A DNA stretch of 64,000 nucleotides from the human T2T-CHM13v2.0 reference genome, Homo sapiens, in NCBI RefSeq assembly GCF_009914755.1, contig NC_060926.1. One strand, given 5' to 3'. The notes under the pieces are model-generated. The model was not told the DNA's origin. It did not search any database and worked only from the letters and a program-made list of their open reading frames with translations. This document shows positions 57,086 through 62,964 of the stretch, in pieces. The translations under genes and the position numbers were made by a program. Each line of letters begins with the position of its first letter. Position 1 is the stretch's first letter.

Positions 57086-57107
57086 CTGGTTTTGGCATAG
57101 AACTCAT
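57086..57107 (-). CDS. MAP3K19: MAP3K19 first canonical coding segment (MSSMPKP)
   Basis: ATGAGTTCTATGCCAAAACCAG|GTAAAT, 22 nt. Confidence 0.93.
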
Positions 57108-57201
57108 TAAAATGTCCAAAAGCTGCTGTTTCTTTGAACTCTCTATTTGTGACACATAATGTATTGCTGATTTTCCACTAAAATCACAAAGTTTAGGATC
57201 T
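57108..57201 (-). other. MAP3K19: 5' part of the start-codon exon (nominal 5'UTR), open and in frame with the CDS, ankyrin-like
   Basis: Acceptor TGTTCTTCCTAG|AGAT; 1 nt plus 31 codons DPKLCDFSGKSAIHYVSQIESSKKQQLLDIL with no stop before the ATG. Confidence 0.85.
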
Positions 57202-57832
57202 CTAGGAAGAACAGAATCAACATTAAAGTTTATTTAGTTGAATCTGTTGAAAAAAGAAAACTAATATGAGAGGGAAACATTTACATCAAATAAATAAAAA
57301 GTAATCTTATGTAGTTTGGGGATAATAATAATGATTTCAAAATGTGTGAATAGAGGATGACAATTTTACAAGATTTTAAATAAAAGGAATTTGCTGTGTA
57401 TCTTTATTCCCATCCCCATTCTAAAAACATTCTGAGGTTTGCAGAGAATTCCCAACTTTGGACAAAAATTTTTATAATTCTTTAAGGGTACATAAAATCA
57501 AGTAAAGATAAAAACATCTTTTGTTGTTTTTTTTTATATTTTTAAATTTTTTTCAATGAGTCATAAGGATTAAAACATTTTGATAAATGATTGTCTTATC
57601 ATTCCAAATAGCTCACTTGATTTTTTTCTTTTCAATAATTAAGCTAACTGCTGACTTTTTTGATATTTCTTTTTTCTAATGCTAACAGCTAGCTCTTTTA
57701 TGATTCAAAATGGTGGAATGGCATAGAATCTTCTCTTTAAAATTAAGCTGATACTTTTATTTCATGGTCTCTTGGATGAGTGGAGCAATCTTGTCATAAA
57801 AACCAAAGTGTGCCTCTCCACATGGCCTTTTC

Positions 57833-58145
57833 TTTTCTTTTTTTTTTTTTTTTTTTTTTTTTTGAGGCGGAGTCTTGCTCTGTCACCCAGGCTGGAGTGC
57901 AGTGGCGCGATCTCGGCTCACTGCAAGCTCTGCCTCCCGGGTTCACGCCATTCTCCTGCCTCAGCCTCCAGAGTAGCTGGGACTACAGGGGCCCGCCACC
58001 ATGCCCGGCTAATTTTTTTGTATTTTTAGTAGAGACGGGGTTTCACCGTGTTAGCCAGGATGGTCTCGAACTCCTGACCTCGTGATCTGCCTGCCTCGGC
58101 CTCCCAAAGTGCTGGGATTACAGGCGTGAGCCACCGCGCCCAGCC
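57833..58145 (-). mobile_element. AluY
   Basis: TSD ccacatggccttttc at 57818 and 58147. Confidence 0.94.
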
Positions 58146-59446
58146 CCCACATGGCCTTTTCATTCCTCTTTACCTGGCTTTGTGGTTGGTAAGCCCAACT
58201 GGCTGATCTTAGGACCATTTACAACAGAACAAGTCTCTTCTTATCCTCTCTATTATGACAGCACAAGTCTCTTCTTATCCTCTCTATGTTGTACTGAACC
58301 CTTGCATTAGATATCAGCTCAGAGAAATCCAAAGTTAAATGATGAGAATCCCATTAATAGATTACAGTGAGGGAAACAATGATGAAACTTGCTTTACTTA
58401 TCCTATTCTAGGACAAGGAGCAAGTTGATCATGGTCTCTGTCCTAAAACATTTGAATTTGAATCTCTTCGTTGCTATGGGACAGGGTAATGTGTCATGAG
58501 CCACAGTAATATTCTCTTATGGACTTTTCTTCATCAAAGATTGTAATTCAAAAGAAATAGCATAGGACTGAGAATTGGGGTTGCCACTACCTTGATATAT
58601 GGCTTTAAGCAAGCCACTTATCATATTTGCAGAGAATTCCCAACTTTGGACAAAAATTTTTATAATTATTTAAGGGTGCATAAAAACAAGTAAAGATAAA
58701 CTCATTGGGGCCTCTCCTCATCTGCCTAGATTAGGGTGTCTCCAAGTGGCATACCTTGATTTCCAGTATTCTGGACCCCAATCCAGACCTACTGAACATC
58801 TCTGGGATGACGTCCAGGAATCTCCACTTTTATCAATTGGCCAAACTATTTCTCAACACTAGGCTGAAGTAGCTTCAAAATTCCCTTTTCATTCCATTAT
58901 ACTAACTGATCCTTTTACAATATCTTGTATTCTTGACTATAATTTTGTTCTTGAAGCTCCCTCCTCCTTTTTTTTTCAAAACAAAATTCATATGAAGTAC
59001 TGAGAAAGAGCTCAGGCCATCTGTTCTTATTTGATGACAAGATAACTAAGTAACAGCTTTAGGAAACTGCAATTGTAACATAAGAGATTGCTTATTAACC
59101 CTCTTATTTAAAAAAAAAGTGCATTGTTTATCTCCTCCCTCCTAAAAGAGCATTTGACATATAGTAATTTTAAGATAACTTGAAAACACTATTATAAATT
59201 GCTTTTCAGACATTGACAGTGTTTTCTGAAATAATTAGTAATATCTTGGGGGTAGAGAGCTGGATACTCAAGAATTATTTGACATTCCCAGTAACTACCA
59301 GAACAGTAATCATTTCAAGAAATGAAACAAAGAGCCAGATATCATAAGAATAATAGGTAGCAAATTTTAGAAACTGCACATCACTTTGCAATTGTGAAGT
59401 CACTTTTATGATGATGCATGTGCATTTGGCATATATAGTAGAAAAC

Positions 59447-59912
59447 AGCCTGTAATCTCCACAGCTTGGGAGGCCAAGATGGGAGAGCAGCTTGAGGGCA
59501 GGGGTTTGAGACCAGCATGGGCAATATAGTGGGACTCCATCTCCACAAAAAATTAAAAATTAGCCGGGCATAGTGGTATGTGCCTGTAGTTCCAGCTACT
59601 CGAGAGGCTGAGGCAGGAGGATCCATGGAGCCCAGGAGTTTGAGGTCACAGTGAGCTATGATTGCATCACTGCACTCCAGCCTAGGCAACAGAGCAAGAT
59701 CCTGTATAAAAAAGAGGAAAGGAAGAAAGAAAGAGAGAGAGAGAGAAAGGAAGGAAGGAAGGAAGGAGAGGGAAAAGAAAGAGACAGAGAAATAAAGAAA
59801 GAAAGAAAGAAAGAGAGAAAGAAAGAAAGAGAGAGAGAAAGAAAGAAAAAAGAAAGAAAGAAAAGAAAGAAAGAAAAGGATGGGAGGGAGGGAGGGAAAG
59901 GGTAAAAAAGAA
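59447..59912 (+). mobile_element. 5'-truncated AluJ with an expanded (GA/GAAA/GGAA)n purine tail of about 200 bp
   Basis: Direct inspection. Confidence 0.9.
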
Positions 59913-59999
59913 GCTTTGTGTCTCGGTTTACATGTGATTTCTGTAAATAACAATTGAATTGACACCCTTCAGCTGGGCTGACTAACTGCTCATATTCAC

Positions 60000-60700: not shown

Positions 60701-60737
60701 CTGAATGAATAAATAATTTATAATAATACAGCAGCTC

Positions 60738-61049
60738 AGCCGGGCATGGTGGCTCACACCTGTAATCCCAGCACTTTAGAAGGCTGAGGCATGTGGATTG
60801 CTTGAGCCCAGGAGTTTGAGACCAGCCTGGGCAACATGGCAAAACCCCATCTCTACTAAAAATACAAAAAATTAGCCAGGCATGGTGGCATGCACCTGTA
60901 GTCCTGGTGACTCAGGAGGCTGAGGTGGGAGGATCACCTGAGCCTGGGAAAGTCGAGGCTGCAGTGAGCTGTGATCACGCCACTGCACTCCAGCCTTGGC
61001 AACATAGTGAGACTCTGTCTCAAAAAAAAAAAAAAAAATTAAAAAAAAA
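60738..61049 (+). mobile_element. AluJb-like
   Basis: Dimer with A tail. Confidence 0.9.
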
Positions 61050-61554
61050 CAACTAACTTACCTGTATTTACATAGTCAAATGGAGGGAGGCATATGAATG
61101 TAATTTGATGCCTTAATGAAAGTAAAACTTAATTTGGATAATTCAAAACTGAAAAGCTACCGCAGGCCAAAACACCTAAATTGTTCATTTTATAGACCAA
61201 AGAAATGCACTAATTTCCATCTCTATTTCACTTTATGCCATGTAAGTATACTCAGTGTCTCTACCTCAGCTTCTCTAGGGACAAACTAGAAATAATGGTA
61301 TTACTTCAGCAGGGTACTGTGGGAATTAATTAGTTAATTTTTTTTTTTAGTCGCTAAGAAGAAACCACCTCTGATATCAATGTTTATTATTAGTTAGAAC
61401 CAATATGAAAATTTTGAACTGAGAATAGTCTTGCAATAGCATATCAATTCAGCATCTGTTGATCAAGGTATAGATCCAGTTACAGGTACCAGTTTCTTAA
61501 AACTTGGTTCCTAATGTTTAGGGGTTAAAAATGTGGCTATAAAAACAGACATTG

Positions 61555-61866
61555 GGCCGGGCGCAGTGGCTCACGCCTGTAATCCCAGCACTTTGGGAGG
61601 CCGAGGCGGGCAGATCACAAGGTCAGGAGATCGAGACCAACCTGGCTAACATGGTGAAACCCCGTCTCTACTGAAAATACAAAAATAAAATTAGACGGGC
61701 ATGGTGGCGGGCGCCTGTAGTCCCAGCTACTCCAGAGGCTGAGGTGGGAGAATGGCGTGAACCCGGGAGGTGGAGATTGCAGTGAGCCGAGATCGCGCCA
61801 CTGCACTCCAGCCTGGGCGACAGAGCAAGACTGTCAAAAAAACAAATAAACAAACAAACAAAAAAA
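61555..61866 (+). mobile_element. AluY-like
   Basis: CpG-rich; ggcgtgaacc. Confidence 0.9.
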
Positions 61867-62775
61867 CATTAGATTACAATTACAACTGCTGGAAACACCA
61901 TTAAGTAAAATACATTGTCTTTCAAAAAAATTTCTAAGCCTCAGTTCGTGATGTCTGGCAATTTTAGACTATCATTTAGTCCAACAAAAGAATTTGAAGT
62001 ATTGTTTGGTTTTGTTATATCTCTTCTTGAACTGTACCTGAGTGGAATATCTTTCACTTTTTTCTTTATCTGTTTGTGTCTTTACCATAAGGGATTAGAA
62101 GAAACTGTTTCCTAGCAGCAATTGATTTTCTTTCAGTTGGAAGGTCACATGGTCTGACAGTCTCTTTGAAGGTAAATGCCAAGAGTAGGCAATTGCCAGT
62201 CACCAATAATTAATGTCCTTGGTTATGCATATGATTTTGCAAGTTGCTTTGGGAAAAAGTATCTGTAAGTAGAAAATCTAAACACAAGGATCAATACCCT
62301 GAGAAGACAGCCCTTTAAAAATGTATCCTCTGAACTCTTTCATGACAACTAAATATTAGGCAAGGCATAGGCTCTCAGATTCCTTTTTCAGGATAAAGAT
62401 AATAACAGCAACTGGTCCAAAGGGATCAAAGCAGCAATTGTACAAATGGCAATGATGCCAAGGGAACTCCTCTGAGCAAGTTGATAGTGGTCCTCTGGAG
62501 GCTTCCTGGGAGCAAATCATTTCCCAGGGGTGTTGTGTGACTTCTAGCACCCAGCTTGAGGAAGGTGGAAATCGACTGCTCCTGTGTTCTTTTATTATCT
62601 TGTTTTCCACCCCAGTGTCCTGTTTGATCCCCTTTCTTTTTTATATGTTTTGTCTGAAACTTCCTAGGATTATATTTGAAAAGAATTTATTTTTCTTTAA
62701 AAGGAGTCATATGTAGTCTGTGCCCTTTTCACCATCCACTCACCCACCCAAAGACAGAAACAAATATCAACTAAC

Positions 62776-62964
62776 CAGTAAATGTTGAACTTGCTCAAGA
62801 TCACCTTGCCATGAACTTTGTAGAAGTTGCATTTGGGGAGCCTGGATTCTATTGACTGCCAAGAGTTGTCTTTGGATATTGCAATTAGCTACATGAATTG
62901 CGGTTCGATTGCTGTAATTGCAAAGGGTGATATCTACTCACTTTTCCAGAAGAAATCCAACAAC
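62776..62964 (-). other. MAP3K19: Upstream 189-nt exon (nominal 5'UTR) encoding ankyrin-like sequence with one in-frame TGA
   Basis: Acceptor TCATTTTGCAG|GTT, donor CTG|GTTAGT; frame 0 reads VVGFLLEK*VDITLCNYSNRTAIHVA...MQLLQSSWQGDLEQVQHLL. Confidence 0.85.

What the first reader, a model, noticed from the sequence alone, without database searches (positions are those of the whole stretch)
57086..62964. Hidden ankyrin-repeat N-terminus of MAP3K19 encoded across the nominal 5'UTR exons
Seen: three minus-strand segments with proper splice sites join in one frame that runs straight into the canonical MSSMPKP start. Exon A (62964-62776, phase 0-0): VVGFLLEK*VDITLCNYSNRTAIHVANCNIQRQLLAVNRIQAPQMQLLQSSWQGDLEQVQHLL. 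Exon B (60154-60000, phase 0-2): ASEEFLDINFPNQHGLTPLMLAVRDVDLFESLDMLTVYKPVEVLSQLLRHHA. Exon C (from 57201): DPKLCDFSGKSAIHYVSQIESSKKQQLLDIL-MSSMPKP. Established: the ankyrin consensus G-x-T-P-L-H-x-A...V-x-x-L-L-x-x-G-A-D-x-N is matched repeatedly (LLEK[G]VDITLCNYSNRTAIHVA; WQGDLEQVQHLL; LDINFPNQHGLTPLMLA; LLRHHADPKLCDFSGKSAIHY). There are 146 codons with only one stop, and the splice phases match exactly. Inference: MAP3K19 is ancestrally an ankyrin-repeat kinase, and the commonly cited human protein (about 1328 aa, as recalled) lacks this domain through lineage-specific loss or incomplete annotation. More repeats probably lie in exons beyond 64000. I cannot check whether a current annotation already contains this.
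Basis: partly seen in the sequence, partly recalled or inferred. Interest (0 to 1): 0.92.

Follow-up and report, generated by a model that had tools for sequence, protein, structure and literature searches.

The report
Dead ankyrin domain upstream of MAP3K19
The "untranslated" leader exons of human MAP3K19 are the remains of a six-repeat ankyrin domain that other animals still make in front of this kinase; in this human genome a single stop codon cuts it off.

Summary
Exons A (62776-62964), B (60000-60154) and C (57086-57201) have AG/GT borders and join in one frame into MSSMPKP. That frame has one stop, TGA at 62938-62940. They are real coding remnants. Exon B alone finds 134 proteins; of the 120 listed, 87 carry both kinase and ankyrin Pfam families, and nearly all named ones are MAP3K19. 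These include mouse (1515 aa), gorilla, monkeys, marsupials, frogs and fish. A chiton protein has the same layout. The missing first 58 codons (MNKNK...) lie on an intact exon outside the window, at window coordinates 72824-72997. Over 204 codons the human frame differs from gorilla at three places: D9Y, G44W and R67stop. Positions 44 and 67 are Gly in 53 of 54 aligned orthologues. An AlphaFold model of an orthologue gives six ankyrin repeats. However, the domain is already annotated in many other species. What I did not find in print is the loss in human. I could not check chimpanzee or human variation.

The parts
62776..62964 (-). Exon A, probably 'U3' of Boehme 2016, annotated as 5'UTR. It holds codons 59-121 of the ancestral frame: the end of repeat 2, repeat 3, and the start of repeat 4. 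The exon before it (exon U, probably 'U2') holds the ancestral ATG and codons 1-58. Exon U lies outside the window at window coordinates 72824-72997 (G000:C2:135480824-135480997 = L007 1531-1704, minus strand), so it cannot be entered as a part. It is open in human and carries D9Y and G44W.
   Evidence: Identical to gorilla 59-121 except at codon 67. Ank_4 E 0.0053, below the cut-off. Exon U. Its AG acceptor lies 22 nt upstream of the ATG and a GT donor follows GAG. Identity to gorilla residues 1-58 is 56/58.
62938..62940 (-). TGA, codon 67 of the ancestral frame. This is the one stop that closes the ankyrin reading frame. It ends a 66-codon upstream ORF that begins at the ancestral ATG.
   Evidence: Orthologues at this position: 99 Gly, 1 Arg (gorilla), 1 each of F, A, E and Q, and 2 gaps, out of 106 covering it. 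In the 54-row alignment: 53 Gly and 1 Arg.
62830..62832 (-). In-frame ATG (Met103, MQLLQSS...). If exon B is spliced in, an ORF from here runs into the canonical protein. Models of 1426-1428 aa in other species start here.
   Evidence: uATG at position 328 of the leader (counted from the exon-U acceptor); with exon B spliced in it is open into the main ORF. P0007, P0026, P0030 and P0065 begin at gorilla residue 103.
60000..60154 (-). Exon B, codons 122-173: the end of repeat 4 and most of repeat 5, including a conserved insertion. It is 155 nt and is absent from the selected transcript NM_025052.5, so skipping it shifts the frame.
   Evidence: 100% identical to gorilla. 24 of 52 columns are conserved at 90% or more.
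57108..57201 (-). The upstream part of exon C, codons 174-204: repeat 6. Annotated as 5'UTR.
   Evidence: Identical to gorilla.
57086..57107 (-). The canonical start ATG (Met205 of the ancestral frame) and the first coding bases. In the orthologue model these residues continue into the helix that follows repeat 6.
   Evidence: Hub table (coding starts at 57107).; helix 213-225 in P0020 numbering, which is ancestral numbering plus 3. Met at this column in 35 of 54 orthologues.

Best explanation
The 5' leader exons of human MAP3K19 are the coding exons of an old N-terminal ankyrin-repeat domain. That domain has about 204 residues in six repeats, arranged as two stacks of three. It is still part of MAP3K19 in other mammals, frogs, fish and at least one mollusc. 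In this human genome the frame from the ancestral ATG (MNKNK...) is closed after 66 codons by a TGA at a conserved turn glycine of repeat 2. In addition, the main transcript skips the 155-nt exon B. The kinase is therefore made from an internal Met, residue 205 of the ancestral frame, and lacks the ankyrin domain. The old coding exons now serve as a long leader rich in AUGs.

Shown: the exons, the frame, the stop, the orthology, the fold and the conservation.

Inferred:
- The path was GGA (Gly) to CGA (Arg, as the gorilla protein suggests) to TGA, the last step a CpG transition.
- The 66-codon upstream ORF and the other upstream AUGs lower translation of the kinase.
- Loss of the domain changes which partners the human kinase binds, or how it is regulated.
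For: Frame and splice sites.

Orthology:
- Exon B alone finds 134 proteins at E <= 0.01. Of the 120 listed, 87 have kinase plus ankyrin Pfam families, 18 kinase only, 10 ankyrin only and 5 none. The named ones are nearly all MAP3K19.
- Human exon U finds 81, with gorilla best at 97%.
- The frog N-terminus finds 375, including many amphibians and a chiton. The chiton protein is collinear with gorilla over residues 5-205 (38%) and over the kinase (63%).

Pfam on orthologues is above the cut-off: Ank_2 scores 49.8, 47.9 and 48.0 bits against 27.3 for gorilla, cat and mouse. The best repeat is at residues 44-74, which is the repeat the human stop cuts.

Fold: the AlphaFold2 model of the 252-aa bat fragment, using 54 sequences, has pLDDT 84.2 and pTM 0.80, and blocks 11-210 are mostly above 90. 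All Foldseek matches shown are ankyrin or DARPin entries at probability 1.00. With VIA-align, model residues 103-226 fit 2xee_A at Z 15.1, rmsd 1.2 A over 97 residues. Residues 12-99 fit the ILK ankyrin domain 4hi9_A at Z 14.5, rmsd 1.5 A over 84 residues.

Constraint: 66 of 204 columns are conserved at 90% or more in the ankyrin region. The figure is 2 of 241 in the linker and 151 of 269 in the kinase.

Human damage: 3 of 204 codons differ from gorilla (D9Y, G44W, R67stop). The 9 gorilla-Chlorocebus differences are E/K, I/V, K/R, A/T, Q/K and the R/G at position 67. No orthologue has W at 44 (0 of 106) or Y at 9 (0 of 90).

No second copy: within the own genome the N-terminal exons match only this locus. 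That search used a stricter first look.

Leader: there are 479 nt and 7 upstream ATGs from the exon-U acceptor to the canonical ATG.

Literature: Boehme 2016 describes three upstream untranslated exons with 'multiple start and stop codons', and only full-length transcripts in lung (PMC4856290, passages).
Against: - Only one ape orthologue (gorilla) was available. Chimpanzee, bonobo, orangutan and archaic human states are unknown, so the loss cannot be dated. 'Human-specific' is not shown.
- Only this one human assembly was read, so the stop or the two substitutions could be polymorphic.
- I had only the gorilla protein, not its DNA. The CGA intermediate is therefore inferred, and no synonymous changes could be counted.
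- Three changes against roughly one or two expected is not significant by count. That expectation is my own rough estimate from the 9 gorilla-Chlorocebus differences and recalled divergence times.
- The human pieces alone stay under the Pfam cut-offs, and exon U alone gives no hit for human or gorilla.
- The whole-model Foldseek TM-scores are low (TMq 0.22-0.35, rmsd 7-20 A). The two three-repeat halves are not stacked as in a regular ankyrin solenoid, or the model has their angle wrong.
- The hub table leaves one exon of other transcripts unnamed. It may be exon B, in which case some human transcripts may keep half the domain.
- I saw no expression or translation data.
Confidence: 0.88

Rival explanations
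1. Incomplete human annotation. Humans still make an N-terminally extended MAP3K19 from transcripts that include exon B, starting at Met103 in exon A or at a Met in exon B. That protein would keep repeats 4-6, a half ankyrin domain. This can be true alongside the main explanation.
For: With exon B spliced in, three in-frame ATGs are open into the main ORF. They lie 109, 71 and 57 codons before the end of exon C. Models that start at these Mets exist in other species: P0007, P0026, P0030 and P0065 at 1426-1428 aa, and P0100, P0101 and P0108 starting inside exon B. Model residues 103-226 form a self-contained three-repeat stack. Exon B has usable AG and GT sites. The hub table has one unnamed extra exon.
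Against: The selected transcript skips exon B (hub table). Boehme 2016 reports no alternative splicing in adult lung (PMC4856290, passages). No protein 100% identical to human exon B other than gorilla's appeared among cluster representatives, although clustering at 90% can hide a human model. Four ATGs precede Met103 in the leader counted from exon U.
Confidence: 0.2
2. The stop is not fixed or not effective. It could be a variant of this assembly or a common polymorphism, or it could be read through, so that some or all people make the full ankyrin kinase.
For: If gorilla's Arg codon is CGA, then CGA to TGA is a CpG transition, and such sites mutate often (inference). Only one human genome was read.
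Against: Two further radical changes at conserved positions of the same domain (G44W, D9Y) sit on the same haplotype. That fits a frame out of use for some time. A paper that used hg19 also found stops in the upstream exons, though it names no frame. No human model with the long N-terminus appeared. I tested nothing that would point to read-through.
Confidence: 0.06
3. The ankyrin isoform is a minor or predicted-only product in every species. On this view the Met205 protein is the working form everywhere, and the human stop changes little.
For: Met205 is present in 35 of 54 orthologues. Most long models are automatic predictions.
Against: The ankyrin region is the second most conserved part of the protein, from mollusc to mammals: 66 of 204 columns at 90% or more, against 2 of 241 in the linker. 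That requires translation. Frog and fish lack Met at 205.
Confidence: 0.05
4. A chance open frame in ordinary untranslated exons.
For: Per-exon Pfam scores are below the cut-offs.
Against: Identity to a gorilla protein is 98.5% over 204 codons, and exon-by-exon collinearity holds with more than 100 orthologues.
Confidence: 0.01

Closest known systems
The N-terminal ankyrin region of MAP3K19 orthologues, as in public models: mouse 1515 aa P0076, cat-family 1527 aa P0004, gorilla isoform X3 P0003, frog P0122, tarpon P0115.
   Same: The same exons in the same order and phases. Human differs from gorilla at 3 of 204 codons.
   Different: The human frame carries a stop at codon 67 and radical changes at codons 9 and 44. 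The selected human transcript skips exon B.
Kinases with ankyrin-repeat domains, such as ILK (ankyrin domain 4hi9). TNNI3K, RIPK4, ANKK1 and DAPK1 are recalled, not tested here.
   Same: An ankyrin stack joined to a kinase domain. Model residues 12-99 fit the ILK ankyrin domain at Z 14.5, rmsd 1.5 A over 84 residues.
   Different: MAP3K19 is an STE-group MAP3K. About 1000 poorly conserved residues lie between the two domains. I found no evidence of common descent of the two architectures. A 2024 preprint names ILK and TNNI3K as the TKLs that 'uniquely share' ankyrin repeats and gives no domain comment on YSK4 (10.1101/2024.10.01.616093, passages).
Whole-gene loss of MAP3K19 in cetaceans (Huelsmann et al. 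2019, PMC6760925; abstract and passages).
   Same: Lineage-specific inactivating mutations in the same gene.
   Different: There the whole gene is lost. Here only the N-terminal domain is cut off and the kinase ORF stays open.
Upstream ORFs in long 5' leaders.
   Same: An AUG in A-at-minus-3 context (AAGATGA) opens a 66-codon ORF that ends 256 nt before the main AUG. Six more upstream AUGs lie in the part of the leader that was read.
   Different: This upstream ORF is a truncated piece of the gene's own former coding sequence. It is not a dedicated regulatory ORF.

Membership tests
Ankyrin repeat (Pfam Ank clan: PF00023, PF12796, PF13637, PF13857) | Profile match above the curated cut-off | tested here: met
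   Met for orthologues. Ank_2 scores 49.8 (gorilla), 47.9 (cat), 48.0 (mouse) and 54.6 (bat fragment) bits against a cut-off of 27.3. Gorilla differs from the human frame at 3 of 204 codons. The human exons scored one by one stay below the cut-off: 17.5 against 22.7, 14 against 21.1, and none for exon C. The joined human frame was not scored.
Ankyrin repeat (Pfam Ank clan: PF00023, PF12796, PF13637, PF13857) | Stacked helix-turn-helix repeats of about 33 residues | tested here: met
   The AF2 model has 14 helices in pairs, and pLDDT is mostly above 90 over residues 11-210. Model residues 103-226 fit 2xee_A at Z 15.1, rmsd 1.2 A over 97 residues. Residues 9-99 fit 3aaa_C at Z 14.6, rmsd 1.6 A over 86 residues. 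Caveat: whole-model TMq is 0.35 or less, and Z of about 13 can arise for helical repeats in general.
Ankyrin repeat (Pfam Ank clan: PF00023, PF12796, PF13637, PF13857) | G-x-TPLH-type motif and the L-L-x-x-G-A-D turn (consensus recalled) | tested here: met
   Read directly in the sequences: TGNTPLITAA...FLLEKG(V/A)DIT, NRTAIHVA, HGLTPLMLAV and SGKSAIHYV in orthologues. Human has W in place of the first G and a stop in place of the turn G.
MAP3K19 (YSK4) orthologue N-terminus | Collinear with orthologues, exon by exon, and continuous with the MAP3K19 kinase gene | tested here: met
   tblastn of the gorilla and cat proteins places residues 56-123, 122-173 and 174-227 on exons A, B and C, and the rest on the annotated coding exons. 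Residues 1-68 fall on exon U in the same locus.
Intact human coding sequence | Open frame from the ancestral ATG to the kinase | tested here: not met
   There is one TGA at codon 67 of 211. Exon B is absent from the selected transcript (hub table).
Upstream ORF | AUG and in-frame stop upstream of the main start on the same mRNA | tested here: met
   The 66-codon ORF runs from the ancestral ATG to the TGA and ends 256 nt before the main ATG. That exon U is part of NM_025052.5 is inferred from the exon count (13 exons, 10 in the window) and from Boehme 2016.
Upstream ORF | It is translated and lowers main-ORF output | not testable with these tools
   Needs Ribo-seq or reporter assays.
Human-specific loss | Stop absent in chimpanzee, bonobo and other apes; fixed in humans | not testable with these tools
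   Gorilla has Arg. No Pan, Pongo or Homo representative with this region appeared. No primate DNA or human variation data were on hand.

The most novel reading that the evidence does not exclude
The stop arose on the human branch after the split from chimpanzee, by a CpG transition from an Arg codon shared with gorilla. MAP3K19 would then be a kinase that lost a domain conserved across bilaterians in humans alone. The human enzyme would be regulated or targeted differently from the mouse enzyme used to validate it as a lung-fibrosis and COPD target. Its output would be throttled by a 66-codon upstream ORF made from its own former N-terminus. A bolder variant is that the ancestral sense allele still segregates in people.
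Probability: 0.3. Interest if true: 0.65.

Novelty: new member of a known kind. Interest (0 to 1): 0.5.

Why it matters
MAP3K19 has been put forward as a drug target in lung fibrosis, COPD and asthma, partly from mouse experiments (PMC4856290, abstract and passages; PMC5147866 and PMC10670632, titles and abstracts in the search listing only). The papers I saw describe a 1,328-aa protein with a kinase domain and untranslated upstream exons.

If the mouse protein carries a 204-residue ankyrin domain that the human protein lacks, then partners, localisation or autoregulation found in mouse may not carry over to human. Antibodies, constructs and knock-outs designed from one species may miss the difference.

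For human evolution it is a candidate lineage-specific loss of a deeply conserved domain that leaves the catalytic part intact.

For annotation, it explains why these 5'UTR exons look like coding sequence and would score as coding in comparative tests.

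Tried and rejected
- Pfam on single human exons gave only sub-threshold ankyrin hits. 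Pfam on exon U alone, human and gorilla, gave no hit for either, so it says nothing on the effect of G44W.
- I looked for ape sequences other than gorilla through two protein searches. No Homo, Pan or Pongo representative carried the region. Clustering at 90% may hide them, so this dates nothing.
- The third protein search, with the frog N-terminus, widened the range to many amphibians and one chiton. No bird, reptile or shark row appeared among the 120 listed of 375. This is not evidence of absence.
- Foldseek whole-model scores were poor (TMq 0.35 or less). The half-domain alignments by VIA-align resolved this.
- Literature:
  - 'MAP3K19' + 'ankyrin' gave 8 papers. I opened one (PMC12100293): ankyrin there refers to ANKRD1. 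The other seven I judged by title only.
  - 'YSK4' + 'ankyrin' gave 1 paper, with no link between the two.
  - 'MAP3K19' with 'human-specific' or 'stop codon' gave only Boehme 2016 on the untranslated exons.
  - 'MAP3K19' with PhyloCSF, unitary pseudogene, N-terminal extension or uORF: none of the 15 listed rows holds MAP3K19.
  - Supplements were not opened, so a table entry could exist.
- I considered selenocysteine or programmed read-through at the TGA and set it aside. Nothing points to it, but I did not test for it.
- I did not run a complex prediction or a second fold (gorilla ankyrin plus kinase). No binding claim is made.
Exon U is now described under exon A and in the text.

Full report
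**What is in the sequence.** On the minus strand, three segments have standard splice borders. Exon A (62776-62964) is preceded by ttttgcag and followed by gttagt. Exon B (60000-60154) is preceded by tttttaaag and followed by gtgaat. Exon C (57086-57201) is preceded by tcttcctag and followed by gtaaat. Exon A is 189 nt. Exon B is 155 nt, and its last two bases join the first base of exon C into an Ala codon. The frame then runs into the annotated start, MSSMPKP, at 57107. There are 146 codons from the start of exon A to that ATG, with one stop: TGA at 62938-62940.

**It is real coding sequence elsewhere.** The 51 residues of exon B alone find 134 proteins at E <= 0.01. Of the 120 listed, 87 carry both protein-kinase and ankyrin Pfam families, 18 kinase only, 10 ankyrin only and 5 none. 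[quoted passage not shown] They come from placentals, marsupials, a frog and many teleosts, mostly at 1250-1670 aa. The list includes a Mus musculus protein of 1515 aa and a gorilla isoform X3 of 714 aa that is 100% identical to exon B. tblastn of the gorilla and cat-family proteins back onto the window puts residues 59-121, 122-173 and 174-211 on exons A, B and C, and the remainder on the annotated coding exons. Residues 1-58 have no match in the window.

**The missing first exon.** The window's own genome is held. A search with the gorilla protein finds residues 1-68 at G000:C2:135480794-135480997, minus strand, with no stop. Reading it shows an exon with an AG acceptor 22 nt before an ATG, then 58 codons (MNKNK...NLTE), then a GT donor. 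In window coordinates this is 72824-72997. By exon count (13 exons, 10 in the window), and by Boehme et al. 2016, this exon and exon A are most likely their U2 and U3. That paper describes three upstream untranslated exons U1-U3 with 'multiple start and stop codons', 10 coding exons, and no alternative splicing in adult lung (PMC4856290, passages).

**The domain is an ankyrin domain.**
- Pfam on the human exons one at a time hits only ankyrin families, all below cut-off.
- On whole orthologues the match is above cut-off. Ank_2 scores 49.8, 47.9 and 48.0 bits against 27.3 for gorilla, cat and mouse. The best single repeat is at residues 44-74.
- I aligned 54 proteins (A1), with a natural 252-aa bat fragment first, and folded it. 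Mean pLDDT was 84.2 and pTM 0.80, with the 10-residue blocks over residues 11-210 mostly above 90, and 14 helices in pairs.
- Foldseek against the PDB returned at least 500 matches at E <= 0.001. All rows shown are ankyrin or DARPin entries at probability 1.00, but whole-model TM-scores are low (TMq 0.22-0.35).
- VIA-align explains the low scores. Model residues 103-226 fit designed ankyrin proteins at 1.2-1.4 A over 91-97 residues (Z about 15, for example 2xee_A). Residues 9-99 fit V-1 (3aaa_C, Z 14.6, 1.6 A over 86 residues), and residues 12-99 fit the ILK ankyrin domain (4hi9_A, Z 14.5, 1.5 A over 84 residues).
- So the domain is two stacks of three repeats set at an unusual angle, or at an angle the model gets wrong.
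- The bat numbering is ancestral numbering plus 3. The helix that follows repeat 6 (bat 213-225) is made of the first residues of the canonical human protein.

**It is under constraint outside humans, and it is old.** In A1, 66 of 204 columns of the ankyrin region are conserved at 90% or more: 11 of 58 in exon U, 24 of 63 in exon A, 24 of 52 in exon B and 7 of 31 in exon C. The linker has 2 of 241 such columns and the kinase 151 of 269. A search with the frog N-terminus found 375 proteins, among them many amphibian MAP3K19 models and a 2130-aa protein of the chiton Liolophura sinensis. That protein aligns with gorilla over residues 5-205 (38% identity, including the unusual insertion in repeat 5) and over the kinase (63%). 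On this one sequence, the ankyrin-plus-kinase layout predates vertebrates.

**What happened in human.** In a script I joined the human exons U, A, B and C and compared the translation with stored orthologues, without printing it.
- The 211-codon frame has one stop, at codon 67.
- Over 204 codons it differs from gorilla at three places: D9Y, G44W and R67stop.
- Against 128 stored hits, position 67 is Gly in 99 of the 106 that cover it. The rest are Arg once (gorilla), F, A, E and Q once each, and 2 gaps. Position 44 is Gly in 103 of 106 (2 Ser, 1 Thr, no Trp). Position 9 is Asp in 75 and Glu in 11 of 90 (no Tyr).
- Gly44 is the first glycine of the G-x-TPL motif of the best repeat. Gly67 is the turn glycine of L-L-E-K-G that follows it.
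- For comparison, gorilla and Chlorocebus differ at 9 of 204 positions. All are conservative apart from the R/G at 67.
- Three changes is not significant as a count. Their kind, a stop and two bulky aromatic residues at near-invariant sites, fits a frame no longer under selection.
- Because gorilla has Arg where others have Gly, the likely path is GGA to CGA to TGA, the last step a CpG transition. This is inference from proteins; I had no ape DNA.

**Consequences for the human mRNA (partly inferred).** The selected transcript joins exon A directly to exon C (hub table). This shifts the old frame, so even without the stop it would not encode the domain. From the acceptor of exon U to the canonical ATG there are 479 nt with 7 upstream ATGs. 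One is the ancestral start in AAGATGA context, which opens a 66-codon ORF. Another, at Met103, opens a 21-codon ORF. Such a leader would be expected to lower translation of the kinase; this was not tested. If exon B is included, ATGs at Met103 and at two later in-frame Met codons are open into the main ORF. They would add up to 102 residues, that is repeats 4-6. Models starting at those Mets exist in other species. Whether human cells make such a form is open. The hub table leaves one exon of other transcripts unnamed.

**What is known.** The domain is present in public protein models of many species, so 'hidden' applies only to human and to the printed literature. In the paper library, 8 papers hold 'MAP3K19' and 'ankyrin'. 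I opened one, where the word refers to ANKRD1, and judged the rest by title. One preprint holds 'YSK4' and 'ankyrin' and does not link them. It names ILK and TNNI3K as the TKLs that uniquely share ankyrin repeats. Searches pairing MAP3K19 with human-specific, stop codon, PhyloCSF, unitary pseudogene, N-terminal extension or uORF found nothing on this point. Supplements were not read. Whole-gene loss of MAP3K19 in cetaceans is in print (PMC6760925, abstract and passages).

**Limits.**
- I could not see chimpanzee, bonobo, orangutan or archaic genomes, the other human reference, or population data. The loss is therefore shown for this human genome against gorilla. It is not dated and not shown to be fixed.
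- The function of the ankyrin domain is unknown. Partner binding or autoregulation is an inference from what ankyrin domains do in general.

**Verdict.** The finding is real and its interpretation is largely right. The ankyrin architecture is already annotated outside human. The part I did not find in print is the truncation in human. It is of moderate interest, mainly for comparisons between mouse and human and for human-lineage evolution.

Noticed in passing
L007 1531-1704 (-), window coordinates 72824-72997, outside the window: Human exon U carries two derived radical substitutions, D9Y and G44W. G44W replaces the consensus glycine of G-x-TPL. No orthologue has either residue: 0 of 90 for Y at 9 and 0 of 106 for W at 44.
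   Followed up: yes
P0159 (Liolophura sinensis, 2130 aa): A mollusc protein has the same N-terminal ankyrin region (38% identity over 205 residues) and a MAP3K19-type kinase (63% identity). The fused layout therefore seems older than vertebrates.
   Followed up: partly
Rows listed: No bird, reptile or shark representative appears among the listed hits, while amphibians, teleosts and mammals are many. This may be a gap in the word-based search or a real loss. I did not examine it.
   Followed up: no
Window 18225-20678 (the 2454-nt exon); proteins P0003, P0009, P0021, P0025, P0041, P0054, P0058: Short models of 664-738 aa join the ankyrin region almost directly to the kinase and skip the large, poorly conserved exon. 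They recur in gorilla, cat, cow, capuchin, mole-rat, elephant and pig. This may be a conserved short isoform.
   Followed up: no
Window 57086-57107 and 54175-54290 (-): In the orthologue model, the first residues of the canonical human protein (MSSMPKPERHAESLLDI...) form the helix that follows repeat 6 (bat 213-225). Confidence falls off after about bat residue 220 and is below 50 from 224. The human protein thus begins inside a structural element.
   Followed up: partly
P0003 residue 67: Gorilla has Arg at the turn glycine that is Gly in 53 of 54 aligned orthologues. Constraint on this repeat may already have been weaker in African apes before the human stop.
   Followed up: no
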